NCBI GenBank assembly: GCA_964347405.1
Contig: CAYFYM010000055.1
Location: forward strand, 1-38,730
Direction: 5' to 3'
DNA from: an uncultured Candidatus Bathyarchaeia archaeon
GTDB taxonomy: Archaea > Thermoproteota > Bathyarchaeia > TCS64
DNA: 38,730 bases
The position numbers and the translations under genes are program-made. A model generated the notes under the pieces. The model did no database searches, was not told the DNA's origin, and saw only the letters and a list, made by a program, of their open reading frames with translations. Positions within the stretch are counted from its first letter, which is position 1; each line of letters starts with the position of its first letter. Shown here one piece after another: positions 6,243 to 31,920 of the stretch.

Positions 6243-6494
6243 GTGATCACTCTTTCTCTCCCAATCACCATAATGATTACCAGTGATGCATACAGAATAC
6301 GTCTATCTATCTGTACCAATTCTTCAGCCATCTCCGTCTCTCCTACACTTGTTACCGTACCTTCGATGTGAAACATTACTAATAAACATAAAACGGAAGG
6401 TGCATGGCTGCCCAATTTCTATCCGGTAAAGATGATAAAGAAATAATGTTGTCCGAGAACTCGCTTCAGGGGGCTTCCGTATAGGCTTCCACCG

Positions 6495-6692
6495 TCACTT
6501 TTCCAGATGCTTCTTAAGCAGACCAGTTAGCTCGTCAATGTGTTCTTCCTTGTCTTTCTCCATCTTCTTCCAGAAGGCTTGGCATTCGCTGCATCCGGCC
6601 GAGTCTGCCTGGTATTTGTCCTTGATTCTCCAGAGGCTCTGGCTCTCTTCCACGAGCTGGGTCATGAGGTCGTATACATGGTCGCTTAACAT
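6495..6692 (-). CDS. Hypothetical small helical protein (65 aa, one CxxC)
   Basis: ORF with coding-like composition. No family recognised. Confidence 0.4.
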   Translation of the reverse strand: MLSDHVYDLMTQLVEESQSLWRIKDKYQADSAGCSECQAFWKKMEKDKEEHIDELTGLLKKHLEK

Positions 6693-6770
6693 TTTACTTC
6701 ATGTCTGGCTTGAGAAACACTTTTTATAAACCTTAGAGGCCCTGTTCGGTATACAAATAAAATCGATTTC

Positions 6771-6781
6771 CGGTTTAAATA
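6771..6781 (+). promoter_or_regulatory. BRE/TATA box (cggTTTAAATA) for permease 1
   Basis: The TATA box ends 24 nt before ATG 6806, which implies a leaderless or near-leaderless mRNA. The same GGTTTAWATA pattern recurs before many genes in this window. Confidence 0.6.
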
Positions 6782-6805
6782 GGGTCTTTCTTTAGACTAC
6801 TTGAG

Positions 6806-8120: not shown

Positions 8121-8145
8121 CAGTATATAAGGAATCGTTCCTAGG
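8121..8145 (+). promoter_or_regulatory. TATA box (TATATAA, 8124-8130) plus candidate operator AATCGTTCCTAGG (8133-8145)
   Basis: The 13-mer recurs as AATCGTTCCTAAG at 27877-27889. Both copies sit at the same distance from their ATG (16 nt) and from their TATA box. Confidence 0.55.
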
Positions 8146-8161
8146 TATAACTTGACTAAAA

Positions 8162-9019
8162 ATGCCAGGAATAAGAACATACGAGGACTTCGTCTACTCT
8201 TCACGAGAAGAAAAGATGAAGAGGGTGCAGGAGGCCTACGAGCGTTTCCAGGAGACCAAGACCTTTGAGTACCCGGCTTGGCTCTACGGCGAGCCCATGG
8301 GCAAGCTGTTCAAGGTCGAGGTCGAGGACAGCCCCAACTTCGGGGAGACCGCCTACCTGGAGATGGACTCCGCGCAAACCGTCTTCATGGTGGTGGACAT
8401 GCAGATCGACTTCTGTGGCGAGAAGGGCTACGTCAACCAGATGGGGTACCCCTTGGAGAACACTGCCCAGGCCATCGAGCCCATCAAGAAGTGCCTCAAA
8501 GAAGTCAGGAAGACAAACATGAACATCATGTACACCCGTGAGGGCCACGAGCCGTCGCTGACGGGCGCACCGTTCAACAAGATACTGCGGAGCAAGATAA
8601 TCGGCGAAGGCTACGGCATAGGCGACACGCCCCCAGGCGGGATCGGAGAGCTCCTTGTACGAGGCCAGAAGAACTGGGACATCATCGAGGAACTCTACCC
8701 CCAGGAGGGAGACTACATCCTCGACAAGTCGGGGAAAGGCGCGTTCAACCAGAGCGACATCCACCAGAAGCTGCTGAACATGACCCCCCCGCCAAAGTAC
8801 CTGGTGATAACGGGGATCACGGCGGACGTCTGCCCGCACACCATCATGCGTGAGGCGAACGACTTCGGTTACTGGTGTCTGTTCCTGAAGGACGCTTCAG
8901 GCGCGACGGACGAACGTAACCACGAGGCCGCGGTGCGGATGATAAAGATGCAGGGAGGAGTATTCGGGAACGTCTCGGACTCCAAGCGGTTCATCAAGGC
9001 AGTCAAAACCATCCAGTAA
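8162..9019 (+). CDS. Isochorismatase-family cysteine hydrolase (amidohydrolase) with a ~65-aa N-terminal extension
   Basis: 285 aa. VVDMQIDFC (catalytic Asp region), DKSGKGAF (Lys) and ITGITADVCPHTIMREA (nucleophile Cys) match the D-K-C triad layout of this family. Confidence 0.8.
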   Translation: MPGIRTYEDFVYSSREEKMKRVQEAYERFQETKTFEYPAWLYGEPMGKLFKVEVEDSPNFGETAYLEMDSAQTVFMVVDMQIDFCGEKGYVNQMGYPLENTAQAIEPIKKCLKEVRKTNMNIMYTREGHEPSLTGAPFNKILRSKIIGEGYGIGDTPPGGIGELLVRGQKNWDIIEELYPQEGDYILDKSGKGAFNQSDIHQKLLNMTPPPKYLVITGITADVCPHTIMREANDFGYWCLFLKDASGATDERNHEAAVRMIKMQGGVFGNVSDSKRFIKAVKTIQ

Positions 9020-9031: not shown

Positions 9032-9042
9032 CGGTTTAAATA
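9032..9042 (+). promoter_or_regulatory. BRE/TATA box (cggTTTAAATA) for permease 2
   Basis: Identical 11-mer to 6771-6781. It ends 23 nt before ATG 9066. Confidence 0.6.
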
Positions 9043-9065
9043 GAATTCTTTTCCACGTATACTAG

Positions 9066-10380: not shown

Positions 10381-10391
10381 AGGTTTAAAAG
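10381..10391 (+). promoter_or_regulatory. BRE/TATA box (aggTTTAAAAG), preceded by a weak T5 terminator (10376-10380)
   Basis: Ends 29 nt before ATG 10421. Confidence 0.45.
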
Positions 10392-10420
10392 GCATCTTTC
10401 GTTGAACGTAAACGAAGAAA

Positions 10421-11065
10421 ATGAGGTTGAAAAGACCCTTTGAGTACGAGATCAAGCCAAAAAAGGTAGATAAAGGCACACACTGGGTCACCGTTGACCT
10501 GAAGAACGTAAGTACAGACGTCCTCTCTCAGCTGGATGTGCAGCTACAGTCTCGGGACTCCTATTTCATCTTTGTCCATGGCACCGGAAGCTATATGCCC
10601 GAGTTGAAGGGAAACGTGATAACCAGCCTACCCTTCCAGATAACCGCCCGTCAAACAGGCATGGTGTACGTCACCGTGAATGGTTACAGAGACGGCGTGT
10701 ACTTCTACTGGGAGACGCCCGCCGAGGAGATCCAGGTAGGGGCAGAGGTGGCTGCGTTAGAAAACCTGTTCGTCCTGTCTCATCCCTATACGGCCATAGG
10801 TAAGTCCCTCGAGATCGAGGCGATAGTCAAGGCGATCGTCGGCGGGAAGAAGCTTGATCTGAGCTTCTGGGTGGAAACTCGTTCGGGCGCCTTTGACAGG
10901 ATCGCTGAGATAGAGACTAAGAAGCTGGAGGCGGGTGAAGAGGTGAGGTACTCGGCCGAGTTCACGCCCGAGGAAACCGGTATCCACGAGATATACGCCT
11001 ACCTGTACGACGGGACCACGCTGCTGGGACGCAAGAACGACACCATCTACGTCCAAAGCGAGTAA
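10421..11065 (+). CDS. Hypothetical protein with two tandem Ig/CARDB-like beta-sandwich halves and no signal peptide
   Basis: 214 aa. Alternating beta-type pattern. The second half (..LEAGEEVRYSAEFTPEETGIHEIYAYLYDG..) resembles CARDB-type domains. Weak call. Confidence 0.45.
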   Translation: MRLKRPFEYEIKPKKVDKGTHWVTVDLKNVSTDVLSQLDVQLQSRDSYFIFVHGTGSYMPELKGNVITSLPFQITARQTGMVYVTVNGYRDGVYFYWETPAEEIQVGAEVAALENLFVLSHPYTAIGKSLEIEAIVKAIVGGKKLDLSFWVETRSGAFDRIAEIETKKLEAGEEVRYSAEFTPEETGIHEIYAYLYDGTTLLGRKNDTIYVQSE

Positions 11066-15482: not shown

Positions 15483-16415
15483 ATGATCACGACAGTAGCA
15501 CAGGAGCCTGAGGCCGCTCAGGATCAAAGCTGTCCCTCGTGCAACGGAACGGATCTTATCCACGACATCGATACGGGGGAGGTGATCTGCTCTAGATGTG
15601 GCACCGTGGTCGATGAACGTTCATACGACCTCGGTCCGGAGTGGAGGTCCTACACTAGGCAGGAGAGAGAGGCACGGGCGAGGACCGGCCACGCGCTGAC
15701 CAACAAGATCTATGACCGCGGTCTCTCGACGGTGATGGCTGGTAGCGTGGACGCGCGGGGGAAGCAGCTGGACACGGAGACCATGAGGAAGATGAACCGG
15801 CTGAAGCGCCTCAACAGCAGGGAGAAAAACTACGAGTCATGGGACAAGAACCTCAAGATAGCCCTCAGCGAGATGGACAGGATATGCACAGAGCTCCATC
15901 TCCCAGACTACATACACGAAGAGGCGGCGAAGATCTACCGCAAGGTCCTGAAGAAGGACCTGGTAAGAGGGAGATCCATAGACGGGTTCGTGGGGGCGTC
16001 CATTTTCGCCGCGTGTAGGCTCTCGAAGCTCCCCTACTCCATCAAGAAGATCGCGGAGGTAAGCATGTTGGACAGCAGCGATATAGGGTACCACTACCGG
16101 CTGCTGGTCAAGGAACTCGACATCAAGATGCCTCTCGACAAACCCAACAAGTTCGTGTTGGGCATGGCCTCCCGTCTCGGTCTCAACGCGGACGTGGAAC
16201 AACACTCGATGAGGATAATCGAGAAGGCCAAGGAGAAGAGACTGGTGGTGGGCAAGAACCCGAGAGGCGTGGCGGCTGCCGCGTTTTACCTCGCGTGCGT
16301 CCATAAGGGGTACCCGGTCACCCAGACCCAGGTCGCGAACGTCGCCGACGTATCCGAGGTAACCATGAGGAAAAGGTTCAAGGAATACGAGCCCATCCAG
16401 AGCTTCATGGAATAG
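15483..16415 (+). CDS. tfb: Transcription initiation factor IIB (TFB)
   Basis: N-terminal zinc ribbon CPSCNG..CSRCG. Two cyclin-fold repeats (GRSIDGFVGASIFAACRLSKLP, KNPRGVAAAAFYLAC). Confidence 0.93.
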   Translation: MITTVAQEPEAAQDQSCPSCNGTDLIHDIDTGEVICSRCGTVVDERSYDLGPEWRSYTRQEREARARTGHALTNKIYDRGLSTVMAGSVDARGKQLDTETMRKMNRLKRLNSREKNYESWDKNLKIALSEMDRICTELHLPDYIHEEAAKIYRKVLKKDLVRGRSIDGFVGASIFAACRLSKLPYSIKKIAEVSMLDSSDIGYHYRLLVKELDIKMPLDKPNKFVLGMASRLGLNADVEQHSMRIIEKAKEKRLVVGKNPRGVAAAAFYLACVHKGYPVTQTQVANVADVSEVTMRKRFKEYEPIQSFME

Positions 16416-17725: not shown

Positions 17726-17918
17726 CTTCAGTCAGTTAATTCTAAAAAGTAGATCATATAAACCTGAAACAGTTCTCCGCGTATTCACATATCCATGCAG
17801 GAGGTCCATTATCTCCATATCTTCATTCAAATCATCTTCACTAAATTTTAATATTTACATAATAATGGCACTAAAATAAGGTTATAAGAAATGCTTTCAA
17901 TACTTGTAACGAGAAAAA

Positions 17919-21345: not shown

Positions 21346-22314
21346 TCAGAGTAAAAACGGTAAAATCCATGAACTCAAATATAGAGCTATCAGGAGGCCC
21401 CCGGTCTTTTTATCGTTGACGCCTCTGTAAGCGAGTACGCTAACCGCTACTATATGCAGCAGGATAGAGTAGGATCCTATCAGCCGGACCTCTCTCACGT
21501 TGATCCTTAGAGGGTTAACCAAGGCTGAGAACCCCATTGCCAACGTGATGTCCACGATGCAGCTACCCACTATGTCCCCTATGGCCAGCTCGTAGTATCT
21601 CTTCCTTATCGACGACATGGCCACCACGAACTCGGGCAGGCTGGTCCCTATCGATAACGCGAAGAAGCTTATGAAGAACTCTGACACCCCAAGGATCCCA
21701 GATACCATTATCGCCGACTCCACGACGAGGTAAGATCCTATTCCAACGCCTATGAAGCTGAGCACGATCCCGAGGGCGGTCCAGGGCTTGTTTATCGAGG
21801 CTATCCTCGGGGACTCGCTCTCCTCCTCGGCGTACCTCCTGCCCCCGAAACGCCTGATCACCCAGATAGAGAAAAACCATAGCAGGACGAGCAATACGCC
21901 GTCTAGCCTGGACAAGGTTCCGTCCAGAGACAGGACGACGGCCACTGTGAGAATACCCACCTCGGTGGCCCCTAAAACGGCGAAGGGTCTAGGGATGAGC
22001 CTGCAAAACGTGCAGAAGAAGGGCATTACGCCCAGTATGAGTAGAAGCTGGGCGTTGGCTGAGCCGATGGTGTTCCCGACGGCGATTCCTCCGTGGTCTA
22101 TCAGGGCGGAGAATACCCCGTTAACTATCTCCGGGATGTCCGAGCCAATCGACGAAACTATGAATCCGATGTTGAACATCGAGACGCCGAAGTATCTGGC
22201 TAATAGAATGAGGTTCTCGACGATTATGTCTCCGCTGATGTAGAGGAGGGCGAGGCCGATTACTATGCTTACTGCCAACAGCCATGGCTGCAAAGAATCA
22301 CCATTATATATCAT
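21346..22314 (-). CDS. Ca2+/cation antiporter (CaCA/YrbG family)
   Basis: Two alpha-repeat motifs, GSDIPEIVNG and GTSLPEFVVA, in a 10-TM-like protein. Confidence 0.85.
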   Translation of the reverse strand: MIYNGDSLQPWLLAVSIVIGLALLYISGDIIVENLILLARYFGVSMFNIGFIVSSIGSDIPEIVNGVFSALIDHGGIAVGNTIGSANAQLLLILGVMPFFCTFCRLIPRPFAVLGATEVGILTVAVVLSLDGTLSRLDGVLLVLLWFFSIWVIRRFGGRRYAEEESESPRIASINKPWTALGIVLSFIGVGIGSYLVVESAIMVSGILGVSEFFISFFALSIGTSLPEFVVAMSSIRKRYYELAIGDIVGSCIVDITLAMGFSALVNPLRINVREVRLIGSYSILLHIVAVSVLAYRGVNDKKTGGLLIALYLSSWILPFLL

Positions 22315-22342
22315 AGTTCATCCGGATTTATCGTTGATAAAG

Positions 22343-22847: not shown

Positions 22848-23006
22848 TTAGAGGAGTTTATCCAGCTCCTTCTCCATGTCGCCGGACACGCCCGGAGGCC
22901 GCCAGTCGATCTGCTGGGCCTCTACTCCCTGTTCCTTGAGATCCTCGTAGAAATCTAGGAGACCCAGGTTCAATACCTTCAGTTTCTCTTCTAGGATTCT
23001 TGACAT
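22848..23006 (-). CDS. 52-aa ORF coupled to fdrA. Resembles a detached C-terminal tail of FdrA.
   Basis: The ATG at 23006 lies 1 nt after the fdrA stop (23010-23008). The sequence is MSRILEEKLKVLNLGLLDFYEDLKEQGVEAQQIDWRPPGVSGDMEKELDKLL. The track start at 23042 would overlap fdrA. Confidence 0.55.
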   Translation of the reverse strand: MSRILEEKLKVLNLGLLDFYEDLKEQGVEAQQIDWRPPGVSGDMEKELDKLL

Positions 23007-23007
23007 G

Positions 23008-24585
23008 TTACCCCTCCCTCCACGGTATCGGCATCCTCTCACGCCGGGCTATCATTCCTGCCACGGCCGATGCCTGGGCGTTACTGGGCAGCACCAGGAC
23101 CCCGGCGCGTTCAAGCTTCTCGACCTGCTCCTCGTAGCCTTGAGGGTCCTTCGACGTGCCCACCACCGACGCGACCACGGGGAGGTAGCCTCCCTCATCC
23201 TCCGCCCGTCTCTTGGCTGACTTGATGGCGTCGATGAGCGCCCCCGCCGGGTCGTCGTGAGACCCGTACCCCAGCACCACGTCGAGGAGGATGACGGCGG
23301 TCTCCGGGTCCTCCGCCTCCTTCCCTAATCTGATCTTTCTCTGCGTCGGGTCGATCATGGGGTGGGGGCGCCCCTCCACGAACTCCTCGCTCCCCATATC
23401 CACGAAGCTGTGCCCCCTGCTCTCCCTGTGGCTCTCCAGCCTGTAGTCCGGGTTGAGGGGGCTGTTGGAGTACGTGTCGCCTAGGAGCCCTCTCAGAACC
23501 ACCTGGGCCTCGGTTGCGAGGGTTCCCCCCGCGTACAGTCCCCTGACGTACCTCTGCCTCTCGGCCAGCTTCCCCCACTCCGACTCGGCCATTGAAGCCA
23601 GCTCGTCCATGTCCCAGCGATAGAACTGTTCGGTGTAGCCCTCTCCCTTCACGCTGTTCACGGTCCTCACGGCGGCCTGGTCAAGCGTCTCTGCCCAGGT
23701 GTATCCCCTCTCGACGACAAGCCCGGGGTCTCCGCTGAGGAAGTTGATGATCACCGGCTTCGAGGTGTGTGCGTTGAGGTGTTCCAAGATTTTCTCCTCG
23801 ACGCCGGGGCTCGGCGGCTTGGATACGAGCAGGATCAGCTCCGTATCGGGGTCCCCGTCGAGGAGATCGATGGCCTCCATCATCGTGGTGCCCCCTATCC
23901 GTTCGTCGAGGTCGTTTCCTCCCGTGCCGATGGCATGTGTGATCCCGACGCCCATGGACTGCATGAGGCACGTCACCTCCTGGGTCCCGGAGCCCGAGGC
24001 CGCCACTATCCCGACGGGCCCCCTGTCGACAACGTTCCCGAACCCGAGGACCTTTCCCCCGATGATGCTCGTGCCGCAATCGGGGCCCATCACCAGCAGC
24101 CCCTTCTCTTTCCCCAGCGTCTTGAGCTCCCTCTCCCTGGCGATGGGCACGTTGCTGCTGAAGATGAATAGGTTGAGCCTGCGGTCCAGACCCTCTCTGG
24201 CTTCTCTGTAGGCGTGTTCGCCGGGTATGGAGATGGATAGAAGGTTTGCTCCGGGCATGGACTCGAGGGCCGCCTCTATGCTCTTGGGGGAGTACTCCCT
24301 GTCGATGTCTCTGCGCTTGGCTGTCAGCCCCTCCTCGACCCGTTGGAGCATGTCCTCTATTTTGTCTTCCTCGGCGTCGATGCTTATTACGAGGTCGTTG
24401 GGGCCCGCGGAGTCGAGTTCGTCGCCGTACAGGTTCAGCTCCTTGAGTATCTCCTTGTTGGAGTCTGTCCCCATCACGACGGCTATTTGGTTTACCCCCG
24501 TGAACTCCTGGGCCTTCTGGGAGACCCGGAGCAGGAGCACCGAGTCGTAGTACTTCCCCGTTTTCACGATGTTCTTCTTCACCAT
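23008..24585 (-). CDS. fdrA: FdrA-like protein (succinyl-CoA-synthetase-alpha-like fold)
   Basis: 525 aa. KGLLVMGPDCGTSIIGG, VGIVAASGSGTQEV and FVEGRPHPMIDPTQR match my recollection of E. coli FdrA along its whole length. Confidence 0.85.
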   Translation of the reverse strand: MVKKNIVKTGKYYDSVLLLRVSQKAQEFTGVNQIAVVMGTDSNKEILKELNLYGDELDSAGPNDLVISIDAEEDKIEDMLQRVEEGLTAKRRDIDREYSPKSIEAALESMPGANLLSISIPGEHAYREAREGLDRRLNLFIFSSNVPIARERELKTLGKEKGLLVMGPDCGTSIIGGKVLGFGNVVDRGPVGIVAASGSGTQEVTCLMQSMGVGITHAIGTGGNDLDERIGGTTMMEAIDLLDGDPDTELILLVSKPPSPGVEEKILEHLNAHTSKPVIINFLSGDPGLVVERGYTWAETLDQAAVRTVNSVKGEGYTEQFYRWDMDELASMAESEWGKLAERQRYVRGLYAGGTLATEAQVVLRGLLGDTYSNSPLNPDYRLESHRESRGHSFVDMGSEEFVEGRPHPMIDPTQRKIRLGKEAEDPETAVILLDVVLGYGSHDDPAGALIDAIKSAKRRAEDEGGYLPVVASVVGTSKDPQGYEEQVEKLERAGVLVLPSNAQASAVAGMIARRERMPIPWREG

Positions 24586-25445
24586 ATTCTTTCCTCCATT
24601 AACTTTAACGCCGTCAGCACCCCTATGGCGAGGTCCGTGCCCGATGAATGCCCCACCCGGCAGAGCTCCTCTACGGCGTGGTCCAGCCGCCTCTGCGAGC
24701 CTGTGCGCAGAGCCGTCATCAGCTCATCCGTGTTCTCGTCCACCATGCCCAGAGCGTAGTGGCTGAGGAGGGAGCGGCTGATCTCGTTGGTCCTGTTCAC
24801 GGCTTCCCCGAGGATGCGATGCTTCAGCCCGACCTTGGCCTGGGTCAAGCCTCTCGGGGTTCTGGACAGCTCCAAGGTGGCAAGCAGCCCGCTGAGAAGG
24901 TCGTCGCCGCTGGGCGTAAGGCCTGGCCCGAGCCCCAGGAGCTTCACCGCCTCCCCGCCGCCCAGTCCGCCTGCTAGTATGTCGCTGACTATCGCCCTGG
25001 CTTTATACGAGTAGGAGTTGTCCCCTTCCCGGGCTTGGTCTGTGAACATGCTCAGCAGCGGCTTCATCCCCCCGCTTCTCCCGTGGACGATGAGAGACGC
25101 TGACAGGGTCTCGGGGCTCAGCCTCGGCTGCGTCTCCCCTGACGCGGCGGCCGGTCTCCATACGGCTGCAGAGCAGGTGTCGATTTGGGTGCCGCGGCCG
25201 ATTTGTAGGCCACCTGTTCTTAGCTGGGCTTCCTCGCCTTCCCTGAGCTTCGAGAGCGTCTCCGTGTCCTCCACCGTGATCGTGTAGGGCGTCCTCGGGA
25301 TCCGCGTTGACGAGATCGAGTAAAGTTCGCCGCCGAGGGCCAGGTTCGCCACATCGCTGAACACGCTGTGGACCGAGCCGCTGGCCCCGCGTGTGGCGGC
25401 CTCCTTGACCTTGAATCCGATGGATGTCGCCTGAAGCCTTGTCAT
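24579..25445 (-). CDS. DUF2877 (YlbF-like) protein
   Basis: 288 aa. It occupies the position between the fdrA and DUF1116 genes, as in the E. coli fdrA-ylbE-ylbF set. N-terminal ..SVHSVFSDVANLAL.. is typical of the family as I recall it. Overlaps fdrA by 7 nt. Confidence 0.65.
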   Translation of the reverse strand: MTRLQATSIGFKVKEAATRGASGSVHSVFSDVANLALGGELYSISSTRIPRTPYTITVEDTETLSKLREGEEAQLRTGGLQIGRGTQIDTCSAAVWRPAAASGETQPRLSPETLSASLIVHGRSGGMKPLLSMFTDQAREGDNSYSYKARAIVSDILAGGLGGGEAVKLLGLGPGLTPSGDDLLSGLLATLELSRTPRGLTQAKVGLKHRILGEAVNRTNEISRSLLSHYALGMVDENTDELMTALRTGSQRRLDHAVEELCRVGHSSGTDLAIGVLTALKLMEERIW

Positions 25446-25448
25446 GGG

Positions 25449-26570
25449 TTACTCTGCTCTCACTATGGCCGCTATGGGGCCTCCCCCGGGGGGGCCTTGG
25501 TGCTCCGAGCCGCCTGACACGTAGACCATGGGGTCGCCCGTTATCGAGCTCACCACGGCTCCCACCACCGCCCGCGCGTGGCGCGTAGCCGGGAGCATGG
25601 AGTCCGTCAGCATGGTGTGTCTTCTGCCCCTCACCTCCCCGTCGGGGGAGGCGTCGCACTTGGCGAAGACGTTCACGATCCTCGATCTCTGTTCCTCGCT
25701 AGGCTGGCACTCGTACTCGAGTCCCGCGTCTCTGAGCGCGTCGTGGACGGCTCCCGCGTCTATGCCGTCCTTCATGACGCTGTGCCCTATTCTAAGCTTG
25801 CTCACCGACTCGCTGGAGTTGCCCAGGACGACTATCTCGCAGGCGTCGAGCTCGACGCCGGCCGAGGTTGAAGCAACGCTGCTGTAGACGCCTCTCATCT
25901 TGTAGATTACGTCGTCGCCGAGCTCCGTCTCCTCCACCTCCCCCAGGGCCAGGGCGACGCCGAGGGCCGACGCCCCCCTGCTATAGCCCATGGACTTGAG
26001 GGTGTCGTCGGTGGCCACGGTCTCGCCCCTGTCCCGGGCGTCCTTTATCTTGGCGGACGTCAGCAGGGGGCATTTTATCTGGACGAAGTGCACGTCGGAG
26101 GGGCTGCCTATGCGGGCGTCGTCCATGGCCGTCTTGACCTTCTCGGCGACCTCCCTCACCATGGGCATGCGGCCTATCTCTTCGGGCTTGAACCTCCTCG
26201 TCAGGCTGATACCGATGGCCAGGCGTTTACCCTTCCCGGGGGCACCCTCGGCCTCTTTCCTCGTGAAGACCGTGAAGTGGGGGGAGAGCACTCCCTCCGT
26301 CCCGCCGGACATCACCAGGCTCACCCTCTCATCGACCTCCTCCAATGGTATCTTCATCTTCTCGCTCAGCAGGACCTTGCACGCCAGATCCGCCTGGCCC
26401 CTGCTGTAGTCGTTGACGAGGCCGTTGCCCTCGGTCTTGCCGATTATCGCCACTATCTCAGTTGGAGCCACCGCCCCGCTGTCGATCAGCTCCTCTATGC
26501 CTGAGACATCCCCAGGCCCCTCCATCCCCATCTTGTAAACGTTCGAGTCGATCAATCTATTCACCTTCAT
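25449..26570 (-). CDS. Ring-opening amidohydrolase of the AtzD (cyanuric acid hydrolase) / barbiturase family
   Basis: 373 aa, collinear with AtzD as I remember it. Motifs: IIGKTEGNGLVNDY, VMSGGTEGVLSPH, HFVQIKCPLLT, MGYSRGASALGVALA, VNVFAKCDASPDG, VYVSGGSEHQGPPGGGP. Confidence 0.88.
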   Translation of the reverse strand: MKVNRLIDSNVYKMGMEGPGDVSGIEELIDSGAVAPTEIVAIIGKTEGNGLVNDYSRGQADLACKVLLSEKMKIPLEEVDERVSLVMSGGTEGVLSPHFTVFTRKEAEGAPGKGKRLAIGISLTRRFKPEEIGRMPMVREVAEKVKTAMDDARIGSPSDVHFVQIKCPLLTSAKIKDARDRGETVATDDTLKSMGYSRGASALGVALALGEVEETELGDDVIYKMRGVYSSVASTSAGVELDACEIVVLGNSSESVSKLRIGHSVMKDGIDAGAVHDALRDAGLEYECQPSEEQRSRIVNVFAKCDASPDGEVRGRRHTMLTDSMLPATRHARAVVGAVVSSITGDPMVYVSGGSEHQGPPGGGPIAAIVRAE

Positions 26571-27813
26571 ATTTATCCGAGAAAGCCTTCAAAGCCTTCC
26601 TGAAGCACTCCATGGGGGCCCGCACCACTCCGGCGCCTATCTGGCCCACCCCGGGCTCCCTGTGGGCTATACCCGTGTTGATCAACGGGGCCACGCCTTT
26701 CCGCAGAACCTTCCGCAGGTCGATCCCCACGGGGACGCCTCTGAAGTCCAGCTGGGGTATGGTTAGGTTGGGGTCGTCTCCCTGGGTTATCTCGTACATC
26801 TCCCGGGTGTAGTTCAGCGCGTCGCCGGGGATCCCTCCGACGAACTGCACTATGGAGGGGCTGGCCGCCATGGCGAAGCCGCCCACCCCCCGGGTCTCCG
26901 AGATGCTGCTGTCGCCGAGGTCAAGCGCCGCGTCGCTTTTGCTGTACCCCGAGAAGTAGAGTCCGTCCACCTCCGGAGCCTCCGCCGTGTACCACTCGTC
27001 TCCCGTGGCGCTGATCCTTATCCCGAACTCGGTGCCGTTTCGGCTCATGGCCGATGTGATGGTGCAGTGCTCTATGCCTATTATCGAGTCCATGGCGGCC
27101 TTGCTGTTGGCCATGCTGAAGTTGAGGTAGAAGTGCTCGTTTTCCGAGATGAACCCGTAGACCTCCCCCAGCGTCCTCCTGTCGGTGTCGGAGTCGATCA
27201 TCCTGTTGGTCAGTTCTTTCAGCAGGAGGAGCGAGGCGGCCACGTTCCTGTTGTGGACCTCGTCGTTCATGTGGAGAGCCTTGGCGGTGATGGCGTTCAG
27301 ATCGATGGGCTCCGCCTCCCCGGCGACGACTTTAAGCGTCGGGTACAGCGTGTCCTCCATCCACTTCAGCCTCTGGATGACCTCGTCGCTGTACGCCCCG
27401 AACCTCAGAACCTTTCCCAGTCCCTCGTTCAGGTTCGAGTAGGCCCTGTTGCCTCCCTCCATGTTCTCGACGACCATGACTGGCATCGAGGGGCTGATGA
27501 CCCCCGCCATGGGTCCAACGCACCCGTGGTCGTGGCAGGGGCTGAGCACGATGTCCCCGCGCTCGGCCAGCTTCATCGCCTCCTCCGGGTCGTCCGCCAG
27601 TCCCTCGTAGATGATGGCCCCCGTGACGGCGCCTCTCTGGGGGCCGGACATTCTCTCCCACGTCACGGGGGGGCCGGCGTGTAGGAAGGTCTCGTCGTCC
27701 ATGCCGGGGACTGCCGTCTTCGCCAAGCTGAAGCCGGTCAGCATGGGTCTGGCGGATGTGACCCGTTTGAAGGCTTCTTCGTTGGCTTCCGATATGAGAT
27801 CCCTTAAACCCAA
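26557..27813 (-). CDS. DUF1116 (YlbE-like) protein
   Basis: 418 aa, TTG start. FLHAGPP, GPMAGVISPSMPVMVVEN, NEGLGKVLRFGAY and INTGIAHREPGVGQIGAGVVRAPMECF match E. coli YlbE from memory. Confidence 0.85.
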   Translation of the reverse strand: MGLRDLISEANEEAFKRVTSARPMLTGFSLAKTAVPGMDDETFLHAGPPVTWERMSGPQRGAVTGAIIYEGLADDPEEAMKLAERGDIVLSPCHDHGCVGPMAGVISPSMPVMVVENMEGGNRAYSNLNEGLGKVLRFGAYSDEVIQRLKWMEDTLYPTLKVVAGEAEPIDLNAITAKALHMNDEVHNRNVAASLLLLKELTNRMIDSDTDRRTLGEVYGFISENEHFYLNFSMANSKAAMDSIIGIEHCTITSAMSRNGTEFGIRISATGDEWYTAEAPEVDGLYFSGYSKSDAALDLGDSSISETRGVGGFAMAASPSIVQFVGGIPGDALNYTREMYEITQGDDPNLTIPQLDFRGVPVGIDLRKVLRKGVAPLINTGIAHREPGVGQIGAGVVRAPMECFRKALKAFSDKYEGE

Positions 27814-27835
27814 TGCAGTTAAGCCATGGAAGCCG

Positions 27836-27889
27836 TTCTTTAAATACGTTAAAACCTGGCTTTCACCTTTAAAAGCAATCGTTCCTAAG
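27836..27889. promoter_or_regulatory. Divergent promoter region. Minus-strand TATA box (TATTTAAAG, 27838-27846). Plus-strand TATA box (TTTAAAAG, 27868-27875) with candidate operator AATCGTTCCTAAG (27877-27889).
   Basis: The TATA boxes sit 24 nt from TTG 27813 and 30 nt from ATG 27906. The 41 nt from 27868 to 27908 align position by position with 8124-8164. Confidence 0.6.
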
Positions 27890-27905
27890 CTTTTATTGAA
27901 TCGAA

Positions 27906-29183
27906 ATGAATGGGATATTAACGGTCATCCCCCTTGTGGTGATACTGGTCCTAGTGCTGCCGCCCTTCCGTCTGCACATGATGATCGCCGGCCTCGTAGG
28001 CGCGGCGGTAGCTATACTGATAGGGGGCATACCCCTCGGTGACATCACCGGGCTCTACCTGAGCGGCCTGGGCCAGATAATGGGGATAACCTCGGTCATG
28101 ATCCTCGCGGCCGCTGCCAAGCTGCTTGCCGAGATGGGGGCCATAAAGAGCATAGTTAACCTCACCTCTCTGATTTTCAAGGAGAGGCTGTACCTGGCCG
28201 CCGGGTTGATCGTCTTGATCCAGGCGGGCGCGGTTTACGCCGCCGGCCTGGGGGCCGGGAACACCATCGTTACGGCGCCCATGGTCAACAGCCTGATGGG
28301 CTTCGTGCCCGAGGTGGTCGCCGCCATGAGCATAGTGTCTCCTACGTCGTGGGCCACCTCGCCGTCGTCGGCCGAGAGCGCCTACGTTTCAAGCCAGTGG
28401 GGCGTAGACGTGGAGACCTACGCGTCCCACATGAGGCCCTACGTCTACGCTATGTGGGGGCTGGCGACGATCCTAGCGATAGTCGGCACCTACAGGAGGG
28501 GGGTGAAGGTCGAGATCGAGGAGGAGGTGCTGGAGACCCCGTTATCGACTCACCTGGTTAGATCCACGCCGTTCATGTTGTTCCTGCTGCTCATACTCGT
28601 GGGGCCGTGGATCAACTCCGTCGTGGGGACCAGCCTCTCTACACCGATCACCAACGTGCTAGTGGTGGTCATCCTGGCTCAGGCCATCTTCTGGGACAGG
28701 AAGAAGAGCTGGAACGAGAACCTCAGCGAGACGGGTCGGCTATTCGTAAAGTCCTCGGCGCCCATACTGAACTACCTGTTCCTGGCTGGCAGCTTCCTAG
28801 GGTTCATCAAGATGCTTGAGGCGATAGGCACGTTTGAGACCCTGGCCGGGTACGTCGAGTTCGCGCCGCCCTGGGCGCTCTTGCTGGCGGCCGTCGTGAT
28901 AGGGTTCATCGTGGCCATCCCGGCGGGGGCCTACACCGTCGCCACCGACATACTCATCATCCCCACCCTGGCCCTGGCGGGCGTCGAGGGATCGACCTTC
29001 GGCTTCGTCGCCATGGCCGTGGCCTACGGCGCCATGATAAGCCCAGTCCAGATCAACGTCGCCGCGACCGCCGAGGGATTCGGCGTGGAAATCCCCGAGG
29101 TCATCAGCAACAACACGCCTTACATGCCCCTGGCGCTGCTAGCGTTGATAGTGCTGCTCGCCGTCTCGGGGGTCCTCTTCTAA
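27906..29183 (+). CDS. Polytopic membrane permease, family not recognised
   Basis: 425 aa, about 11-12 hydrophobic segments, Gly/Ala-rich helices. Its stop lies 4 nt before the next start. Confidence 0.6.
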   Translation: MNGILTVIPLVVILVLVLPPFRLHMMIAGLVGAAVAILIGGIPLGDITGLYLSGLGQIMGITSVMILAAAAKLLAEMGAIKSIVNLTSLIFKERLYLAAGLIVLIQAGAVYAAGLGAGNTIVTAPMVNSLMGFVPEVVAAMSIVSPTSWATSPSSAESAYVSSQWGVDVETYASHMRPYVYAMWGLATILAIVGTYRRGVKVEIEEEVLETPLSTHLVRSTPFMLFLLLILVGPWINSVVGTSLSTPITNVLVVVILAQAIFWDRKKSWNENLSETGRLFVKSSAPILNYLFLAGSFLGFIKMLEAIGTFETLAGYVEFAPPWALLLAAVVIGFIVAIPAGAYTVATDILIIPTLALAGVEGSTFGFVAMAVAYGAMISPVQINVAATAEGFGVEIPEVISNNTPYMPLALLALIVLLAVSGVLF

Positions 29184-29187
29184 CCCC

Positions 29188-30414
29188 ATGTCGTTGACGA
29201 TAATCAATGCAAGGCTGGGCTCCTCCGAGGAGACGTACAGCATAGAGATCAGGGGCGGTGTCATCGAGGATATAGTCCTCGGGGCTTCGGGGGGCGACGA
29301 ACTCATCGACGCCGGGGGGAGGCTGGTCTCCCCGGGGCTGGTGGATCCCCACATGCATCTCGACAAGGCGTTTCTCTCGGAGCGCTACGCGAACAGGACG
29401 GGCACCCTGGAGGAGGCCATAAGGGTGATGGGCGAGGCCAAGAGGAGGTTCACCGTGGAGTCCGTGGCGCAGCGAGCCGGGAGGCTGGTGGAGATGGCGT
29501 CGGCCCACGGGACCACGCTGATACGGACGCACGTGGACGTGGACACCATCGTTGGCTTGACGGGGCTAGAGGCCCTGCTGGGGGTCAGGGAGGCCTACAG
29601 GGGCCGCGTCGATCTGCAGATAGTCGCCTTCCCGCAAGAGGGGTTGGAGCAGGAGGGGGCGGTCTCCCTGCTCGAGGACGCCCTAGAGATGGGCGCCGAC
29701 GCGGTGGGGGGCATACCTGCCCTGGACGAGGACCCGGAGGTCCACATAGACACAGTTTTCGAGCTCAGCGGCAGGCACTCGGTTGACGTGGACATGCACA
29801 TAGACGAGTCGGAGTCCCCGGATGACCTGACCCTCGAATACTACGCGGACAAGGCGTCAAGCGTCCACGGCGACGCCAGGATGGTCACCAGCCACTGCAG
29901 CTCGTTATCCGTAGTCGAGGACGAGAAGGCCGCCCAGGTCATCGATAAGGTACGTGAAGCAGGGATAGGCGTGGTGACGCTGCCTTCAACGAACCTGTAC
30001 CTGCTGGGGAGGAACGGCTACCCCAAGACGAGGGGGCTCACCCGGGTCAGACAGCTCCTCGACGCGGGCGTCCAGGTGCTCTATGGCTCCGACAACGTCC
30101 GCGACCCCTTCAACCCCTTCGGTAACGCGAACCTCCTGGAGATAGGATGCATACTGGCGCACGCCGACCACATGGGCGGCGGCGAGGAGTTGCGGCGGGT
30201 GTTCAGCATGGCCTCGGAGAGACCCAAGACGCTCCTGAGGGACGACCGCGGCCTGTTCGTAGGCTCCAGAGCCGACTTGGTGGTGCACGACGCCCTCGAC
30301 CCCATCGACGCCGTCGTGTCCCACAGGCGGCCCCTCTGCGTCATCAAAGACGGATCCATAGTGTCCCTGGACGGGCGTCAGGCGCCTGAGCCTGTTATGA
30401 AGTCATCGAAGTAG
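29188..30414 (+). CDS. CodA-family amidohydrolase (cytosine deaminase / AtzC / creatinine deaminase-type)
   Basis: 408 aa, collinear with E. coli CodA from memory. Motifs: PGLVDPHMHLDKA, IRTHVDVD, DLQIVAFPQEG, DVDMHIDE, VTSHC, YPKTRGLTRV, GSDNVRDPFNPFG. Confidence 0.88.
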   Translation: MSLTIINARLGSSEETYSIEIRGGVIEDIVLGASGGDELIDAGGRLVSPGLVDPHMHLDKAFLSERYANRTGTLEEAIRVMGEAKRRFTVESVAQRAGRLVEMASAHGTTLIRTHVDVDTIVGLTGLEALLGVREAYRGRVDLQIVAFPQEGLEQEGAVSLLEDALEMGADAVGGIPALDEDPEVHIDTVFELSGRHSVDVDMHIDESESPDDLTLEYYADKASSVHGDARMVTSHCSSLSVVEDEKAAQVIDKVREAGIGVVTLPSTNLYLLGRNGYPKTRGLTRVRQLLDAGVQVLYGSDNVRDPFNPFGNANLLEIGCILAHADHMGGGEELRRVFSMASERPKTLLRDDRGLFVGSRADLVVHDALDPIDAVVSHRRPLCVIKDGSIVSLDGRQAPEPVMKSSK

Positions 30415-31871
30415 GGCACCTTTACCGGCACGGCGAACTTGGTGAAGATGCTGGTTATTATGGCCTCCCCGATGTCTAGGCTCGATATGTTGTGCTGCTC
30501 GCTGGAGAGGTCCTGGGAGCTGCTGTCGATGAGGGTTTCCGTCTCAGACTTTAGCTCGTTTCCGAGGATGATCTTGGTGCACAGGTTCGTCAGTATGGGC
30601 TTGGGGATGACGCTGGTTAGCTGGGTGACCGCCAGCAGCCCTATGTTGAACTTCCTCCCCTCCCTCGCGATGAGGCTGTATATGCTCTCTCCCTTGGTCC
30701 TTATGGTCTCGGCGGCCAGCGCCCTGGGGGCCTCCTCTATAACGATCGTTATGGTGGGGAGGTTATCCAGCGAGCCCTCGGCCTTGCTGCACAGGTACCT
30801 CTCGAAGACGGTGTGGGCGATCATGCTGCCTATCAACAGCTCGGCCTCGTCCACGAGCCGGATGGTGTCCACTATGACCGTCTTCCCGTCGATGAGGTCG
30901 TCTATCATCTGGTCGAGGGTATCCAGCCCGCTTTCCTGGCTGAATATCTGGCTGTGGCAGCGTATCACGCTCCCCGTGTCGAGGTATATCCCCAGCAGGG
31001 ACTCGAGTTTCCTCTTTATAGAGGCGAAGTGTCTCCCCTCGGTCTCCTCGTACTCGCCCCTCACGATGCCCTCGATCCACTCGTCCCCATTCCTGCCGTG
31101 GTAGCTCTTTATGACGCTCATCTCCGTCTCGGTCAGGCTCACAACACCCTCGAGGTGGCTGGGCTTGATGGATCTGAGGTTGATCACGAGCCCCTTCCCC
31201 CCGTCCGCCTGCACAGGGCTGTAGTACACCAGCCTCTCGTCCGAGCGGGGGTGGTTTTTCAGCCCCGCGCCGTGTCTCCCATAGTACTCGTCGTGGGGGT
31301 CCAGCACCAGGCACCCGTAGGAGCCCTCCTTCAGGCCCATGATCCCCCAGAGCAGGACCTTAACGAGGTTGCTCTTCCCGCGGCCGGTCATGGCGGGCAC
31401 AAGTATGTGGTGGGGCAGCAGGTCATCGGCGTCGAGATAGACCCCCACGTCGAGTACCTTGGAGCCGCTTCTCACGTAGCCTAGGAAGAGGGGGTTCTCG
31501 GGCTTCGAGAGAAAAAAGAGGTCCCTGGAGGTCATGCCTCGCACCATGGAGAACATCTGGGGCAGGGCCTTCGCAGACACCAGCTTACCCTCCTCGTCTA
31601 CGGTGGCTATCTCCTTGGCTACGGCGATGACGTACTCTCTCCCCTTCGAGAAGTAGTTCTGGATCTTTTCCCCTTGGAGGCCAATCTCCGCTATGAACTC
31701 CCTGGACTCGGCGGATATCTGACTGCCGAACCTCAGATCGTACACCTGAAGAAGCAGCGATTGATCTTCGCCCTCTACGACGAGGAGCTCACCAAGCTCC
31801 AGCTTCACATCGTTCCGGGCCCTGATCAGGAGGGCTCCGTACTCCCCGCCTGTGATGATCCCTCGCTCCAA
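30378..31871 (-). CDS. HerA/DUF87-type P-loop ATPase (FtsK-HerA superfamily)
   Basis: Walker A PAMTGRGKSNLVK, Walker B ITIVIEEAPR, and EGRKFNIGLLAVTQ. The track start 31919 lies inside the AT-rich promoter. TTG 31871 lies 21 nt after TTTATATTATATTAAA (31893-31908). The 3' end overlaps the convergent CodA-family gene by 37 nt. Confidence 0.8.
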   Translation of the reverse strand: MERGIITGGEYGALLIRARNDVKLELGELLVVEGEDQSLLLQVYDLRFGSQISAESREFIAEIGLQGEKIQNYFSKGREYVIAVAKEIATVDEEGKLVSAKALPQMFSMVRGMTSRDLFFLSKPENPLFLGYVRSGSKVLDVGVYLDADDLLPHHILVPAMTGRGKSNLVKVLLWGIMGLKEGSYGCLVLDPHDEYYGRHGAGLKNHPRSDERLVYYSPVQADGGKGLVINLRSIKPSHLEGVVSLTETEMSVIKSYHGRNGDEWIEGIVRGEYEETEGRHFASIKRKLESLLGIYLDTGSVIRCHSQIFSQESGLDTLDQMIDDLIDGKTVIVDTIRLVDEAELLIGSMIAHTVFERYLCSKAEGSLDNLPTITIVIEEAPRALAAETIRTKGESIYSLIAREGRKFNIGLLAVTQLTSVIPKPILTNLCTKIILGNELKSETETLIDSSSQDLSSEQHNISSLDIGEAIITSIFTKFAVPVKVPYFDDFITGSGA

Positions 31872-31920
31872 ACTGCTCGGATATACACCCGATTTAATAT
31901 AATATAAACAGAAAAACACT

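What the first reader, a model, noticed from the sequence alone, without database searches (positions are those of the whole stretch)
27865..27908. A 41-nt promoter/operator homology links the permease/CodA promoter (27868-27908) to the isochorismatase-family hydrolase promoter (8124-8164)
The two stretches are TATATAAGGAATCGTTCCTAGGTATAACTTGACTAAAAATG (8124-8164) and TTTAAAAGCAATCGTTCCTAAGCTTTTATTGAATCGAAATG (27868-27908). Aligned without gaps from the TATA box to the ATG, about 29 of 41 positions match by my hand count. They share an 11-nt identical core, AATCGTTCCTA, lying 16 nt (to the end of the 13-mer) before both ATGs.

In the first copy the core contains the inverted half-sites GGAA-tcg-TTCC. 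It sits exactly where archaeal repressors block TBP/TFB or RNA polymerase recruitment, between the TATA box and the transcription start.

This argues that two loci ~20 kb apart form one regulon. The first is the permease-hydrolase-permease array. The second is the AtzD/FdrA cluster. The minus-strand promoter of the AtzD operon carries a looser AGAAcggcTTCC in the equivalent position.
Basis: seen in the sequence. Interest (0 to 1): 0.6.

Follow-up and report, generated by a model that had tools for sequence, protein, structure and literature searches.

The report
Shared promoter element of split catabolic cluster
Two archaeal gene groups 20 kb apart, which together look like a cyanuric-acid/biuret/nucleobase breakdown pathway, carry the same rare short DNA motif right after their TATA boxes. 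It is most likely the docking site of one regulator that switches them on and off together.

Summary
The stretches 8124-8164 and 27868-27908 match at 29/41 positions. The 11-mer AATCGTTCCTA occurs only at these two sites in the 2.59-Mb genome. The pair ties for the most similar of 590,241 start-anchored promoter pairs.

The regulon reading is supported by independent evidence:
- In related Bathyarchaeia contigs (L044, L026, L031) the two loci form one contiguous cluster. It comprises AllF/AllH/AtzD/AllG, a 425-aa permease, a CodA-like amidohydrolase, NCS2 permeases and a BiuH-like hydrolase. The window therefore holds a split cluster.
- A motif learned only from 15 promoters of those other clusters (TATA + nnAT-nn-TTYC) ranks the window's permease promoter #1 and the hydrolase promoter #5 of 1085. 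The four neighbouring promoters all fall in the top 5.2%.
- Genome-wide, the bases after TATA carry almost no information, so this is not a generic promoter feature.

The motif lies at about -22 to -12 from the predicted transcription start, a typical archaeal repressor position. No regulator gene was found and no transcription data could be obtained. The palindrome seen in one copy is not conserved. A TATA-adjacent element read by one of about 11 TFB paralogs is a live rival. This is a new member of a known kind, of moderate interest.

The parts
8124..8131 (+). TATA box (TATATAAG) of the isochorismatase-like/BiuH-like hydrolase gene. It starts 38 nt before the ATG.
   Evidence: TATA-half PWM score 10.1, among the top 25 of 1085 promoters.
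8132..8145 (+). Core motif copy 1, GAATCGTTCCTAGG. It contains the 11-mer AATCGTTCCTA (8133-8143) and the dyad GGAAtcgTTCC (8131-8141).
   Evidence: The 11-mer is unique to two sites in the genome. Downstream-half score ranks 5 of 1085 with a PWM trained only on other genomes.
8152..8155 (+). Initiator-like TTGA. Its G lies 26.5 nt from the TATA centre, so the predicted transcription start is about 8154 and the 5' UTR about 7-8 nt.
   Evidence: Sequence. TTGA shows modest positional enrichment genome-wide. The transcription start is inferred, not measured.
8162..9019 (+). Isochorismatase-family cysteine hydrolase (285 aa). The best named family is biuret amidohydrolase BiuH, but the score is below its cut-off.
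   Evidence: Pfam PF00857. NCBIfam NF050097, 237 bits against a 370-bit cut-off.
27868..27875 (+). TATA box (TTTAAAAG) of the 425-aa permease / CodA-like amidohydrolase operon. It starts 38 nt before the ATG.
27876..27889 (+). Core motif copy 2, CAATCGTTCCTAAG.
   Evidence: Rank 1 of 1085 with the PWM trained on other genomes. The 11-mer is unique.
27896..27899 (+). Initiator-like TTGA, in the same register as in copy 1.
   Evidence: inferred.
27906..30414 (+). Operon of the 425-aa permease (27906-29183, no firm family) and the cytosine-deaminase-like amidohydrolase (29188-30414).
   Evidence: The gene pair is conserved in L041, L044 and L031.
27826..27847 (-). Divergent promoter of the AllG-AtzD-AllH-AllF operon: TATTTAAA (27847-27840) followed by the looser motif GAACGGCTTCCATG (27839-27826).
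   Evidence: Rank 39 of 1085.
22848..27813 (-). Operon of AllG-like (27813-26557), AtzD cyanuric acid amidohydrolase (26570-25449), AllH-like (25445-24579), FdrA/AllF-like (24585-23008) and a 52-aa ORF (23006-22848).
   Evidence: Pfam. The AtzD equivalog is passed, 529 bits against a 360-bit cut-off. The 52-aa ORF is conserved in 5 loci.
6774..6795 (+). Promoter of NCS2 permease 1: TTTAAATA followed by GGGTCTTTCTTTAG.
   Evidence: Rank 51 of 1085.
9035..9056 (+). Promoter of NCS2 permease 2: TTTAAATA followed by GAATTCTTTTCCAC.
   Evidence: Rank 56 of 1085. Rank 8 with the hand-aligned PWM.
10384..10403 (+). Promoter of the 214-aa beta-sandwich ORF (10421-11065): TTTAAAAG followed by GCATCTTTCGTT.
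   Evidence: Rank 18 of 1085. Matches the seed consensus at 10/15 positions in register. The orthologous promoter in L030 carries AAATCTTTCAAACT.
6711..6730 (-). Extra motif copy, TTTATAAA followed by AAGTGTTTCTCA. The TATA starts 38 nt before the ATG of a 65-aa ORF (6692-6495), which is divergent from permease 1.
   Evidence: Whole-genome PWM scan. Sequence.
6367..6386 (-). Extra motif copy, TTTATTAG followed by TAATGTTTCACA. It lies upstream of a 32-aa ORF and the M50/CBS peptidase gene (6242-5139).
   Evidence: Downstream-half score 8.4, within the top 6 of 1085.
6761..6771 (+). Motif-like AATCGATTTCC directly upstream of the permease-1 TATA box.
   Evidence: Read from the sequence. Not scored.

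Best explanation
The shared sequence is the core promoter of two transcription units of one catabolic gene cluster that has been split in this genome. Its non-generic part is a 10-14 nt element directly after the TATA box (consensus S-A-A-T-S-K-T-T-Y-C; here AATCGTTCCTA). This element is most likely the binding site of one sequence-specific transcription factor.

The site lies at about -22 to -12 from the predicted start, between TATA and the initiator. The promoters also have near-consensus TATA boxes. The factor is therefore most likely a repressor that lets TBP/TFB bind but blocks RNA polymerase recruitment, and that is released by a pathway substrate or a nitrogen signal.

Weaker copies sit at the same place in the other promoters of the cluster: two NCS2 permeases, the 214-aa ORF, the AllG/AtzD operon, and two sites upstream of permease 1. 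Uptake, ring opening (AtzD) and amide hydrolysis (BiuH-like, CodA-like) would thus be switched together although 20 kb apart.

Shown: the sequence facts, rarity, synteny, and cross-genome recurrence of the motif. Inferred: the transcription start, protein binding, the direction of regulation and the inducer.
For: 1. Rarity and significance. The 11-mer occurs only at these 2 sites in the genome. The pair ties for top of 590,241 promoter pairs.

2. One cluster elsewhere.
- L044 has AllF<AllH<AtzD<AllG | >permease425>amidohydrolase>NCS2>hydrolase>NCS2>DUF87.
- L026 and L031 are also contiguous.
- In L027 the hydrolase directly follows the amidohydrolase.

3. Unbiased motif discovery. EM on 15 promoters from other genomes only gives TATA + nnAT-nn-TTYC, with information content equal to that of the TATA box. 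Scored on 1085 promoters of this genome, the six cluster promoters rank 1, 5, 18, 39, 51 and 56.

4. Hold-out site. The L030 promoter found later (AAATCTTTCA) scores within the top 4 of that background.

5. Not generic.
- Positions after TATA carry at most 0.08 bit genome-wide.
- Non-cluster promoters on the relatives' contigs score low.

6. Extra sites. A whole-genome scan finds two more sites, both in the 563-bp spacer upstream of permease 1.

7. Within-genome similarity. Different genes of one genome (7.2/14) are more alike than the same gene across genomes (5.9/14); permutation p=0.002. This is as expected for sites co-evolving with one factor.

8. Strong TATA boxes. TATA-half scores are in the top 1-7% of the genome. 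This fits repressed rather than activator-dependent promoters (established knowledge of archaeal promoters).
Against: - No transcription factor gene is conserved in or beside the cluster in any locus.
- The dyad symmetry is perfect only in one copy, and the left half is poorly conserved.
- The register relative to TATA is unusually rigid for an operator.
- The motif is absent or unrecognisable in the G209 hydrolase promoter and the L031-lineage promoters. It is weak in the AllG and permease-1/2 promoters here.
- The within-genome similarity test is confounded by base composition.
Confidence: 0.55

Rival explanations
1. The element is not an operator. It is a TATA-adjacent core-promoter element (BREd-like) read by a particular basal factor, such as one of the many TFB paralogs. 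In that case the cluster belongs to an alternative-TFB promoter class.
For: - The motif keeps a fixed register (about +/-1 nt) directly after the TATA 8-mer in about 20 promoters from 7 contigs.
- The genome encodes about 11 TFB paralogs, one of them at 15483-16415 in this window.
- No dedicated regulator gene travels with this patchily distributed cluster.
- TTC at the same fixed position shows a weak excess among other strong promoters: 7 non-C55 cases of 172 against about 3 at other positions.
Against: - The motif differs between genomes while staying alike within a genome. That fits a co-evolving specific regulator better than a conserved basal factor.
- No TFB gene is linked to the cluster in the other loci.
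- Base-specific TFB contacts downstream of TATA are not established in archaea (my knowledge, not tested here).
Confidence: 0.17
2. The site belongs to a global regulator, for example of nitrogen status or stress, and not to a cluster-specific one. The cluster would then be only part of a larger regulon.
For: Other high-scoring promoters:
- in this window, a CBS/HPF-like gene (17919, rank 10) and a Usp gene (22334, rank 9);
- elsewhere, a peroxiredoxin, two ferritin-like proteins and a NifS-like gene;
- in L041, a rubrerythrin/encapsulin operon promoter that matches the L041 permease motif at 13/14 positions.

The half-sites GGAA/TTCC recall the NrpR nitrogen operator GGAAN6TTCC (PMC2723118).
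Against: - The extra hits are few and score clearly below the two seed promoters. They are functionally mixed, and several may be chance.
- No NrpR homologue (PF01995) was found in the 87%-complete assembly.
- The spacing here is N3, not N6.
Confidence: 0.13
3. The similarity has no regulatory meaning. It would be chance, or a remnant of a copied or gene-converted promoter segment, or a donor-type promoter signature of a horizontally acquired island.
For: - The cluster is patchy. The hydrolase was found in none of 24 same-genus genomes searched and the permease in none of 31.
- The hydrolase is 60-68% identical to Firmicutes proteins, so transfer is likely.
- The two NCS2 permeases are paralogs whose promoters could share ancestry.
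- Similarity does not extend upstream of TATA, and part of it is made of generic promoter elements.
Against: - The pair ties for top of 590,241 pairs.
- Non-homologous genes share the motif.
- The motif recurs in other genomes whose flanks and base composition have diverged.
- Non-cluster promoters on the same foreign contigs lack it. It is therefore not a generic donor promoter trait.
Confidence: 0.1

Closest known systems
Archaeal repressor operators placed between TATA box and transcription start (MDR1, LrpA, Phr, TrmB/TrmBL1 type; from established knowledge)
   Same: The site lies directly downstream of a strong TATA box and upstream of the predicted start. It is shared by several promoters of functionally linked genes. 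One copy has a dyad.
   Different: - No regulator has been identified.
- Dyad symmetry is not conserved.
- The register to TATA is unusually fixed.
- The sequence matches none of the known operators I can recall.
- Binding and repression are untested.
NrpR nitrogen operator GGAAN6TTCC of Methanococcus maripaludis (PMC2723118)
   Same: It has GGAA/TTCC half-sites. It sits in promoters of genes that supply nitrogen. It has a repressor-type position.
   Different: - The spacer is 3 nt in one copy (GCAA/TTCC in the other), not 6.
- No NrpR (PF01995) homologue was found in this genome.
- The lineage is Bathyarchaeia, not Euryarchaeota.
Bacterial control of cyanuric acid and pyrimidine catabolism (AtzR at atzDEF in Pseudomonas sp. 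ADP; RutR at rut in E. coli; from my knowledge)
   Same: One regulator would coordinate transport and ring-opening/amidase genes of a nitrogen-rich heterocycle pathway. AtzD and BiuH-type enzymes are consecutive pathway steps (PMC5806882, PMC3758960).
   Different: Those are bacterial LysR/TetR systems acting on sigma-factor promoters, with the regulator gene adjacent. Here the promoters are archaeal TATA promoters with no adjacent regulator.
Eukaryotic downstream TFIIB recognition element (BREd)
   Same: It lies immediately downstream of TATA in a fixed register.
   Different: No evidence of TFB contact exists here. The sequence is unrelated. The motif is specific to one gene cluster and not general.

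Membership tests
Archaeal TATA-proximal repressor operator | Lies between the TATA box and the transcription start | tested here: inconclusive
   The motif starts 1 nt after the TATA 8-mer and ends about 8 nt before an initiator-like TTGA, which lies 26.5 nt from the TATA centre.
Archaeal TATA-proximal repressor operator | Same site shared by promoters of functionally linked genes and rare elsewhere | tested here: met
   The six cluster promoters rank 1, 5, 18, 39, 51 and 56 of 1085 with a PWM trained on other genomes. The 11-mer is unique to two sites. The genes are contiguous in L044, L026 and L031.
Archaeal TATA-proximal repressor operator | Conserved in orthologous promoters of related genomes | tested here: met
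   A degenerate core nnAT-nn-TTYC is found at the same place in L026, L027, L028, L039, L041, L044 and L030. It is not seen in the G209 hydrolase promoter or the L031 lineage.
Archaeal TATA-proximal repressor operator | Dyad symmetry for a dimeric factor | tested here: inconclusive
   GGAAtcgTTCC is perfect only at 8131-8141. Across 21 sites the right arm TTC is present in 18-19 of 21 (T columns) and 13 of 21 (C). The left arm GAA is present in only 8, 9 and 16 of 21.
Archaeal TATA-proximal repressor operator | A cognate DNA-binding regulator that binds it | not testable with these tools
   No regulator gene is conserved near the cluster. This needs EMSA, DAP-seq or a pulldown.
NrpR regulon | Operator GGAAN6TTCC | tested here: not met
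   The spacer is 3 nt (8131-8141). The other copy reads GCAAtcgTTCC. Consensus taken from PMC2723118.
NrpR regulon | NrpR gene (PF01995) in the genome | tested here: not met
   There is no match in the own assembly, which is 87% complete. The control genomes gave matches.
Cyanuric acid / biuret catabolic genes (functional link of the two loci) | AtzD-type cyanuric acid amidohydrolase | tested here: met
   NCBIfam NF052395 scores 529 bits against a 360-bit cut-off. Substrate specificity versus barbiturate is untested.
Cyanuric acid / biuret catabolic genes (functional link of the two loci) | BiuH-type biuret amidohydrolase | tested here: inconclusive
   The best family is NF050097, but 237 bits is below the 370-bit cut-off. 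RutB scores 82 bits.

The most novel reading that the evidence does not exclude
The motif is a fixed-register, TATA-adjacent promoter element recognised by a dedicated TFB paralog, or by a TBP/TFB-bound cofactor. A horizontally mobile catabolic cluster would then be plugged into the host through an alternative basal-factor promoter class, and would not need its own repressor. This would be a sigma-factor-like regulon in an uncultured, multi-TFB Bathyarchaeon.
Probability: 0.15. Interest if true: 0.7.

Novelty: new member of a known kind. Interest (0 to 1): 0.42.

Why it matters
Almost nothing is known about gene regulation in Bathyarchaeia, which are abundant and uncultured sediment archaea. 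This finding gives a concrete, testable cis-element with about 8-10 sites in one genome and counterparts in at least six other contigs.

It shows that a split set of genes still behaves as one unit: AtzD with AllFGH-like proteins, a BiuH-like hydrolase, a CodA-like amidohydrolase, and three permeases. That strengthens the functional assignment of the hydrolase/permease array to the AtzD pathway.

It also provides a bait for identifying the regulator and its inducer. The inducer would in turn reveal the natural substrate of this unusual anaerobic pathway for nitrogen-rich heterocycles.

Tried and rejected
- **Closest GTDB relative (G209).** It carries the permease, but the orthologous divergent promoter is covered by a run of 100 N. 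The genome-contig scan returned only that contig.
- **NrpR as the regulator.** No PF01995 match in the genome and the wrong spacer.
- **Regulator gene in the neighbourhood.**
  - The 214-aa ORF is a beta-sandwich protein with no family.
  - The 65-aa divergent ORF has no family and no homologue near other clusters.
  - The L026 response-regulator gene is not conserved elsewhere.
  - tblastn of the window's small ORFs against all loci found no conserved regulator.
- **Naive automatic anchoring on the end of the A/T run.** It mis-registers AT-rich promoters, because the motif itself begins with A/T. It gives weaker ranks of 15, 18, 40, 67, 89 and 460 of 1139. I replaced it with EM.
- **Generic promoter feature.** Rejected.
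- **Known RNA element.** No Rfam hit in the window. The motif lies upstream of the predicted start.
- **Second lineage of clusters (L031, L035-L038, L040).** It has Shine-Dalgarno-type leaders and different promoter sequences. Only L036 shows TAATCTTTCA, 6 nt further from TATA. I did not use it for the motif.
- **Literature search.** One search was uninformative because of an unspecific term.
Full report
**Observation**

- Ungapped identity from the TATA box to the ATG is 29/41.
- The identical 11-mer AATCGTTCCTA lies at 8133-8143 and 27877-27887.
- The 13-mer AATCGTTCCTARG ends 16 nt before each ATG.
- The TATA 8-mers (TATATAAG, TTTAAAAG) both start at -38.
- The dyad GGAAtcgTTCC is present only in the first copy (8131-8141). 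The second copy reads GCAAtcgTTCC.
- On the minus strand, the promoter of the AllG/AtzD operon reads TATTTAAA-GAACGGCTTCCATG (27847-27826), followed by the TTG start at 27813.

**Is it more than chance?**

The 11-mer occurs only at these two places on both strands of the whole 2.59-Mb, 339-contig assembly. There is no further copy with up to two mismatches in the window.

I collected 1087 candidate promoters of the genome. Each is an A/T run of at least 7, followed at 18-40 nt by a start codon opening an ORF of at least 120 aa. I compared all 590,241 pairs in start-codon register.
- Mean identity over the 38 upstream bases is 10.1 (sd 2.8).
- Only three pairs reach 25 or more.
- This pair (26/38) ties for the top.

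Part of the identity is generic: the TATA box, a TTGA 26.5 nt from the TATA centre that looks like an initiator, and A-rich bases before the ATG. The unusual part is the 13-14 nt right after TATA. Genome-wide these positions carry at most 0.08 bit each in 172 strong-TATA promoters.

**Context**

The organism is an archaeon.
- It has a TFB gene at 15483-16415.
- It uses TATA-type promoters, with T-run terminators abutting the next promoter.
- It belongs to the Bathyarchaeia. The only relative with the permease in the genome collection is titled Candidatus Bathyarchaeia.

Locus 1 comprises:
- NCS2 nucleobase permease (6806-8107)
- isochorismatase-family cysteine hydrolase (8162-9019)
- second NCS2 permease (9066-10370)
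- a 214-aa ORF without a family (10421-11065)

Each has its own promoter.

Locus 2 has a minus-strand operon and a divergent plus-strand pair.
- The operon is AllG-like, AtzD, AllH-like, FdrA/AllF-like and a 52-aa ORF (27813-22848).
- The divergent pair is a 425-aa permease (27906-29183) and a cytosine-deaminase-like amidohydrolase (29188-30414).

AtzD passes NCBI's equivalog cut-off for cyanuric acid amidohydrolase (529 against 360 bits). The hydrolase's best family is biuret amidohydrolase BiuH, at 237 bits and below the 370-bit cut-off. A cysteine-hydrolase BiuH acts after cyanuric acid ring opening in Rhizobium (PMC5806882). The two loci therefore encode enzyme types of consecutive steps.

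**Are the two loci one functional unit?**

Yes, by gene neighbourhood in relatives.
- L044 (JGI metagenome; permease 76% identical) has AllF<AllH<AtzD<AllG | >permease425 >amidohydrolase >NCS2 >hydrolase >NCS2 >DUF87 in one block. A Na/Ca exchanger flanks it, as in the window.
- L026 (hydrolase 78% identical) has NCS2, hydrolase, permease425, AllG, AtzD, AllH and AllF in a row.
- L031 has all of them within 12 kb.
- In L027 the hydrolase directly follows the amidohydrolase.

The window thus holds a split version of one cluster. The cluster is patchy. The hydrolase was found in none of 24 same-genus genomes searched. The permease was found in 4 of 401 genomes of the class, counting this genome.

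**Is the motif specific and conserved?**

I ran an OOPS expectation-maximisation search (width 20) on the 55 nt upstream of 15 cluster genes taken only from other genomes (L026, L027, L028, L030, L039, L041, L044).
- It converged on GGTATATAAA+CCATCTTTCA. This is the TATA box plus a downstream block.
- Positions AT (+3, +4) and TTYM (+7 to +10) in that block are as informative as the TATA box itself.

I then anchored each of 1085 promoters of this genome on its best TATA match and scored only the downstream half.

| Promoter | Rank of 1085 |
|---|---|
| 425-aa permease | 1 |
| hydrolase | 5 |
| 214-aa ORF | 18 |
| AllG operon | 39 |
| NCS2 permease 1 | 51 |
| NCS2 permease 2 | 56 |

All six fall in the top 5.2%. 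The background mean is -8.7 (sd 5.9).

A hand-aligned version gave ranks 1, 2, 6, 8, 63 and 100. A crude anchoring that mis-registers AT-rich sequences still put five of six in the top 8%.

Further support:
- **Hold-out site.** The promoter of the orf214 homologue next to the hydrolase in L030 was found afterwards. It reads TTTATTAA-AAATCTTTCAAACT. It shares 12 consecutive bases with the L044 permease-2 promoter and scores within the top 4 of the background.
- **Non-cluster promoters.** On the relatives' contigs these score low. The motif is therefore not a generic trait of a donor lineage.
- **Whole-genome scan.** A scan that ignores ORFs gives 19 hits. Three are training sites. Two new hits both lie in the 563-bp spacer upstream of permease 1:
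  - 6730-6711 on the minus strand, with its TATA 38 nt before a 65-aa ORF;
  - 6386-6367 on the minus strand, upstream of a 32-aa ORF and the M50/CBS peptidase gene.
- **Motif-like copy.** AATCGATTTCC sits at 6761-6771.

**Limits of conservation**

- The exact 11-mer is found nowhere else.
- Variants are genome-specific: W has AATCGTTCC, L044 has AAT(C/G)TTTCA, L026 has CG(C/T)C(G/C)TT(C/T)C, and L041/L028 have ATTATT(C/A)C.
- Within-genome similarity between different genes (7.2/14) exceeds between-genome similarity of the same gene (5.9/14); permutation p=0.002. Base composition contributes to this difference.
- The right arm TTC is far better conserved than the left arm GAA, so the palindrome is not a conserved property.
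- The G209 hydrolase promoter and the second lineage of clusters with Shine-Dalgarno leaders (L031, L035-L038, L040) do not show the element at this position.

**Mechanism**

With the TATA box centred 26-27 nt upstream of archaeal starts (established knowledge), the start is predicted at the G/A of TTGA (about 8154 and 27898). This gives 7-8 nt leaders without a Shine-Dalgarno sequence. The motif then covers roughly -22 to -12 and is not transcribed.

Known archaeal repressors that bind there let TBP/TFB bind but block polymerase recruitment. The cluster promoters have TATA scores in the top 1-7% of the genome, as expected for promoters that need repression rather than activation.

I therefore favour a shared repressor operator (0.55). 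The inducer is unknown: a pathway substrate, or a nitrogen signal.

No regulator gene is conserved with the cluster. NrpR, whose operator is GGAAN6TTCC (PMC2723118), is not found in the genome, and the spacing differs.

**Rivals**

- **TFB-paralog element (0.17).** The rigid register to TATA, the absence of a linked regulator and the presence of about 11 TFB paralogs keep this reading alive.
- **Wider regulon (0.13).** Moderately scoring promoters suggest it: a CBS/HPF-like gene and a Usp gene in this window, a peroxiredoxin and ferritin-like genes elsewhere, and a rubrerythrin/encapsulin operon in L041.
- **Chance or non-functional ancestry (0.10).** This is unlikely given the statistics and the cross-genome recurrence.

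**Comparison and novelty**

The element works like a classical archaeal TATA-proximal operator. Functionally it parallels bacterial AtzR or RutR control of the corresponding pathways (my knowledge). It matches no described operator and has no known regulator. It is a new member of a known kind.

Its value is practical. It ties the hydrolase/permease array to the AtzD/AllFGH-like operon. It also offers a defined bait for finding a first pathway regulator in Bathyarchaeia.

**Not obtained**

The one close GTDB ortholog of the divergent promoter is hidden by a run of N.

Noticed in passing
window 30378-31919 (-); L041 12472-13965; L044 15190-16689; L031 6186-7693: A DUF87/HerA-like ATPase is an orthologous, conserved neighbour of the cluster in four lineages (75%, 61% and 50-55% identity). 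It is split into two ORFs in L031. It looks like a real cluster member of unknown role and not an orphan.
   Followed up: partly
window 10421-11065; L030 1435-1614; L041 21027-21275: The 214-aa beta-sandwich ORF without a family has a homologue directly downstream of the hydrolase in L030. Another homologue lies on the L041 contig, 10 kb from the cluster. It is a recurrent companion of the pathway genes.
   Followed up: partly
window 6495-6692 (-) and 6233-6331 (-): The long spacer upstream of permease 1 holds a 65-aa helical Cys-x2-Cys ORF with the same promoter architecture (TATA at -38 followed by the motif). It also holds a 32-aa hydrophobic ORF that overlaps the start of the M50/CBS peptidase gene. 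Neither has a family or a homologue in the fetched loci.
   Followed up: partly
G000 contig C197 (4971 bp): This small contig carries an Amidohydro_1 protein (463 aa), an MFS transporter, a ferritin-like protein and the start of an ornithine/aspartate-carbamoyltransferase-like gene. Two of its promoters show weak motif-like sequences (CCCTCTTTCG, CAGTGGTTCC). It may be a further part of the same nitrogen-compound catabolism.
   Followed up: no
G000, whole genome: About 11 TFB paralog genes, seen as 21 cyclin-repeat matches on 10-11 contigs. This is an unusually large set. Contamination of the assembly is 6.7%, so some may be foreign.
   Followed up: no
L041 16900-16951: The promoter of a rubrerythrin-like/encapsulin (Linocin_M18) operon reads GCATTATTCTTTTT after its A/T box. 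This matches the permease-425 promoter motif of the same contig at 13/14 positions.
   Followed up: no
window 8162-9019: The hydrolase is 60-68% identical to proteins of Firmicutes and Chloroflexi (Enterococcus, Anaerotruncus, Desemzia, Anaerolineales). It has no counterpart in 24 same-genus genomes searched. This points to inter-domain transfer of the gene family.
   Followed up: partly
window 17880-17918 and 22300-22333: Two promoters score in the top 10 of 1085 for the motif's downstream half. They belong to the CBSx4/HPF-like gene (GGTTATAAG-AAATGCTTTC) and the Usp gene (CCATTATATA-TCATAGTTCA).
   Followed up: no
window 22848-23006 (-): The 52-aa ORF after FdrA/AllF is conserved at the same place in L041, L042, L044, L031/L032 and L035 (50-81% identity). 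It is therefore a real gene or a detached C-terminal segment.
   Followed up: partly
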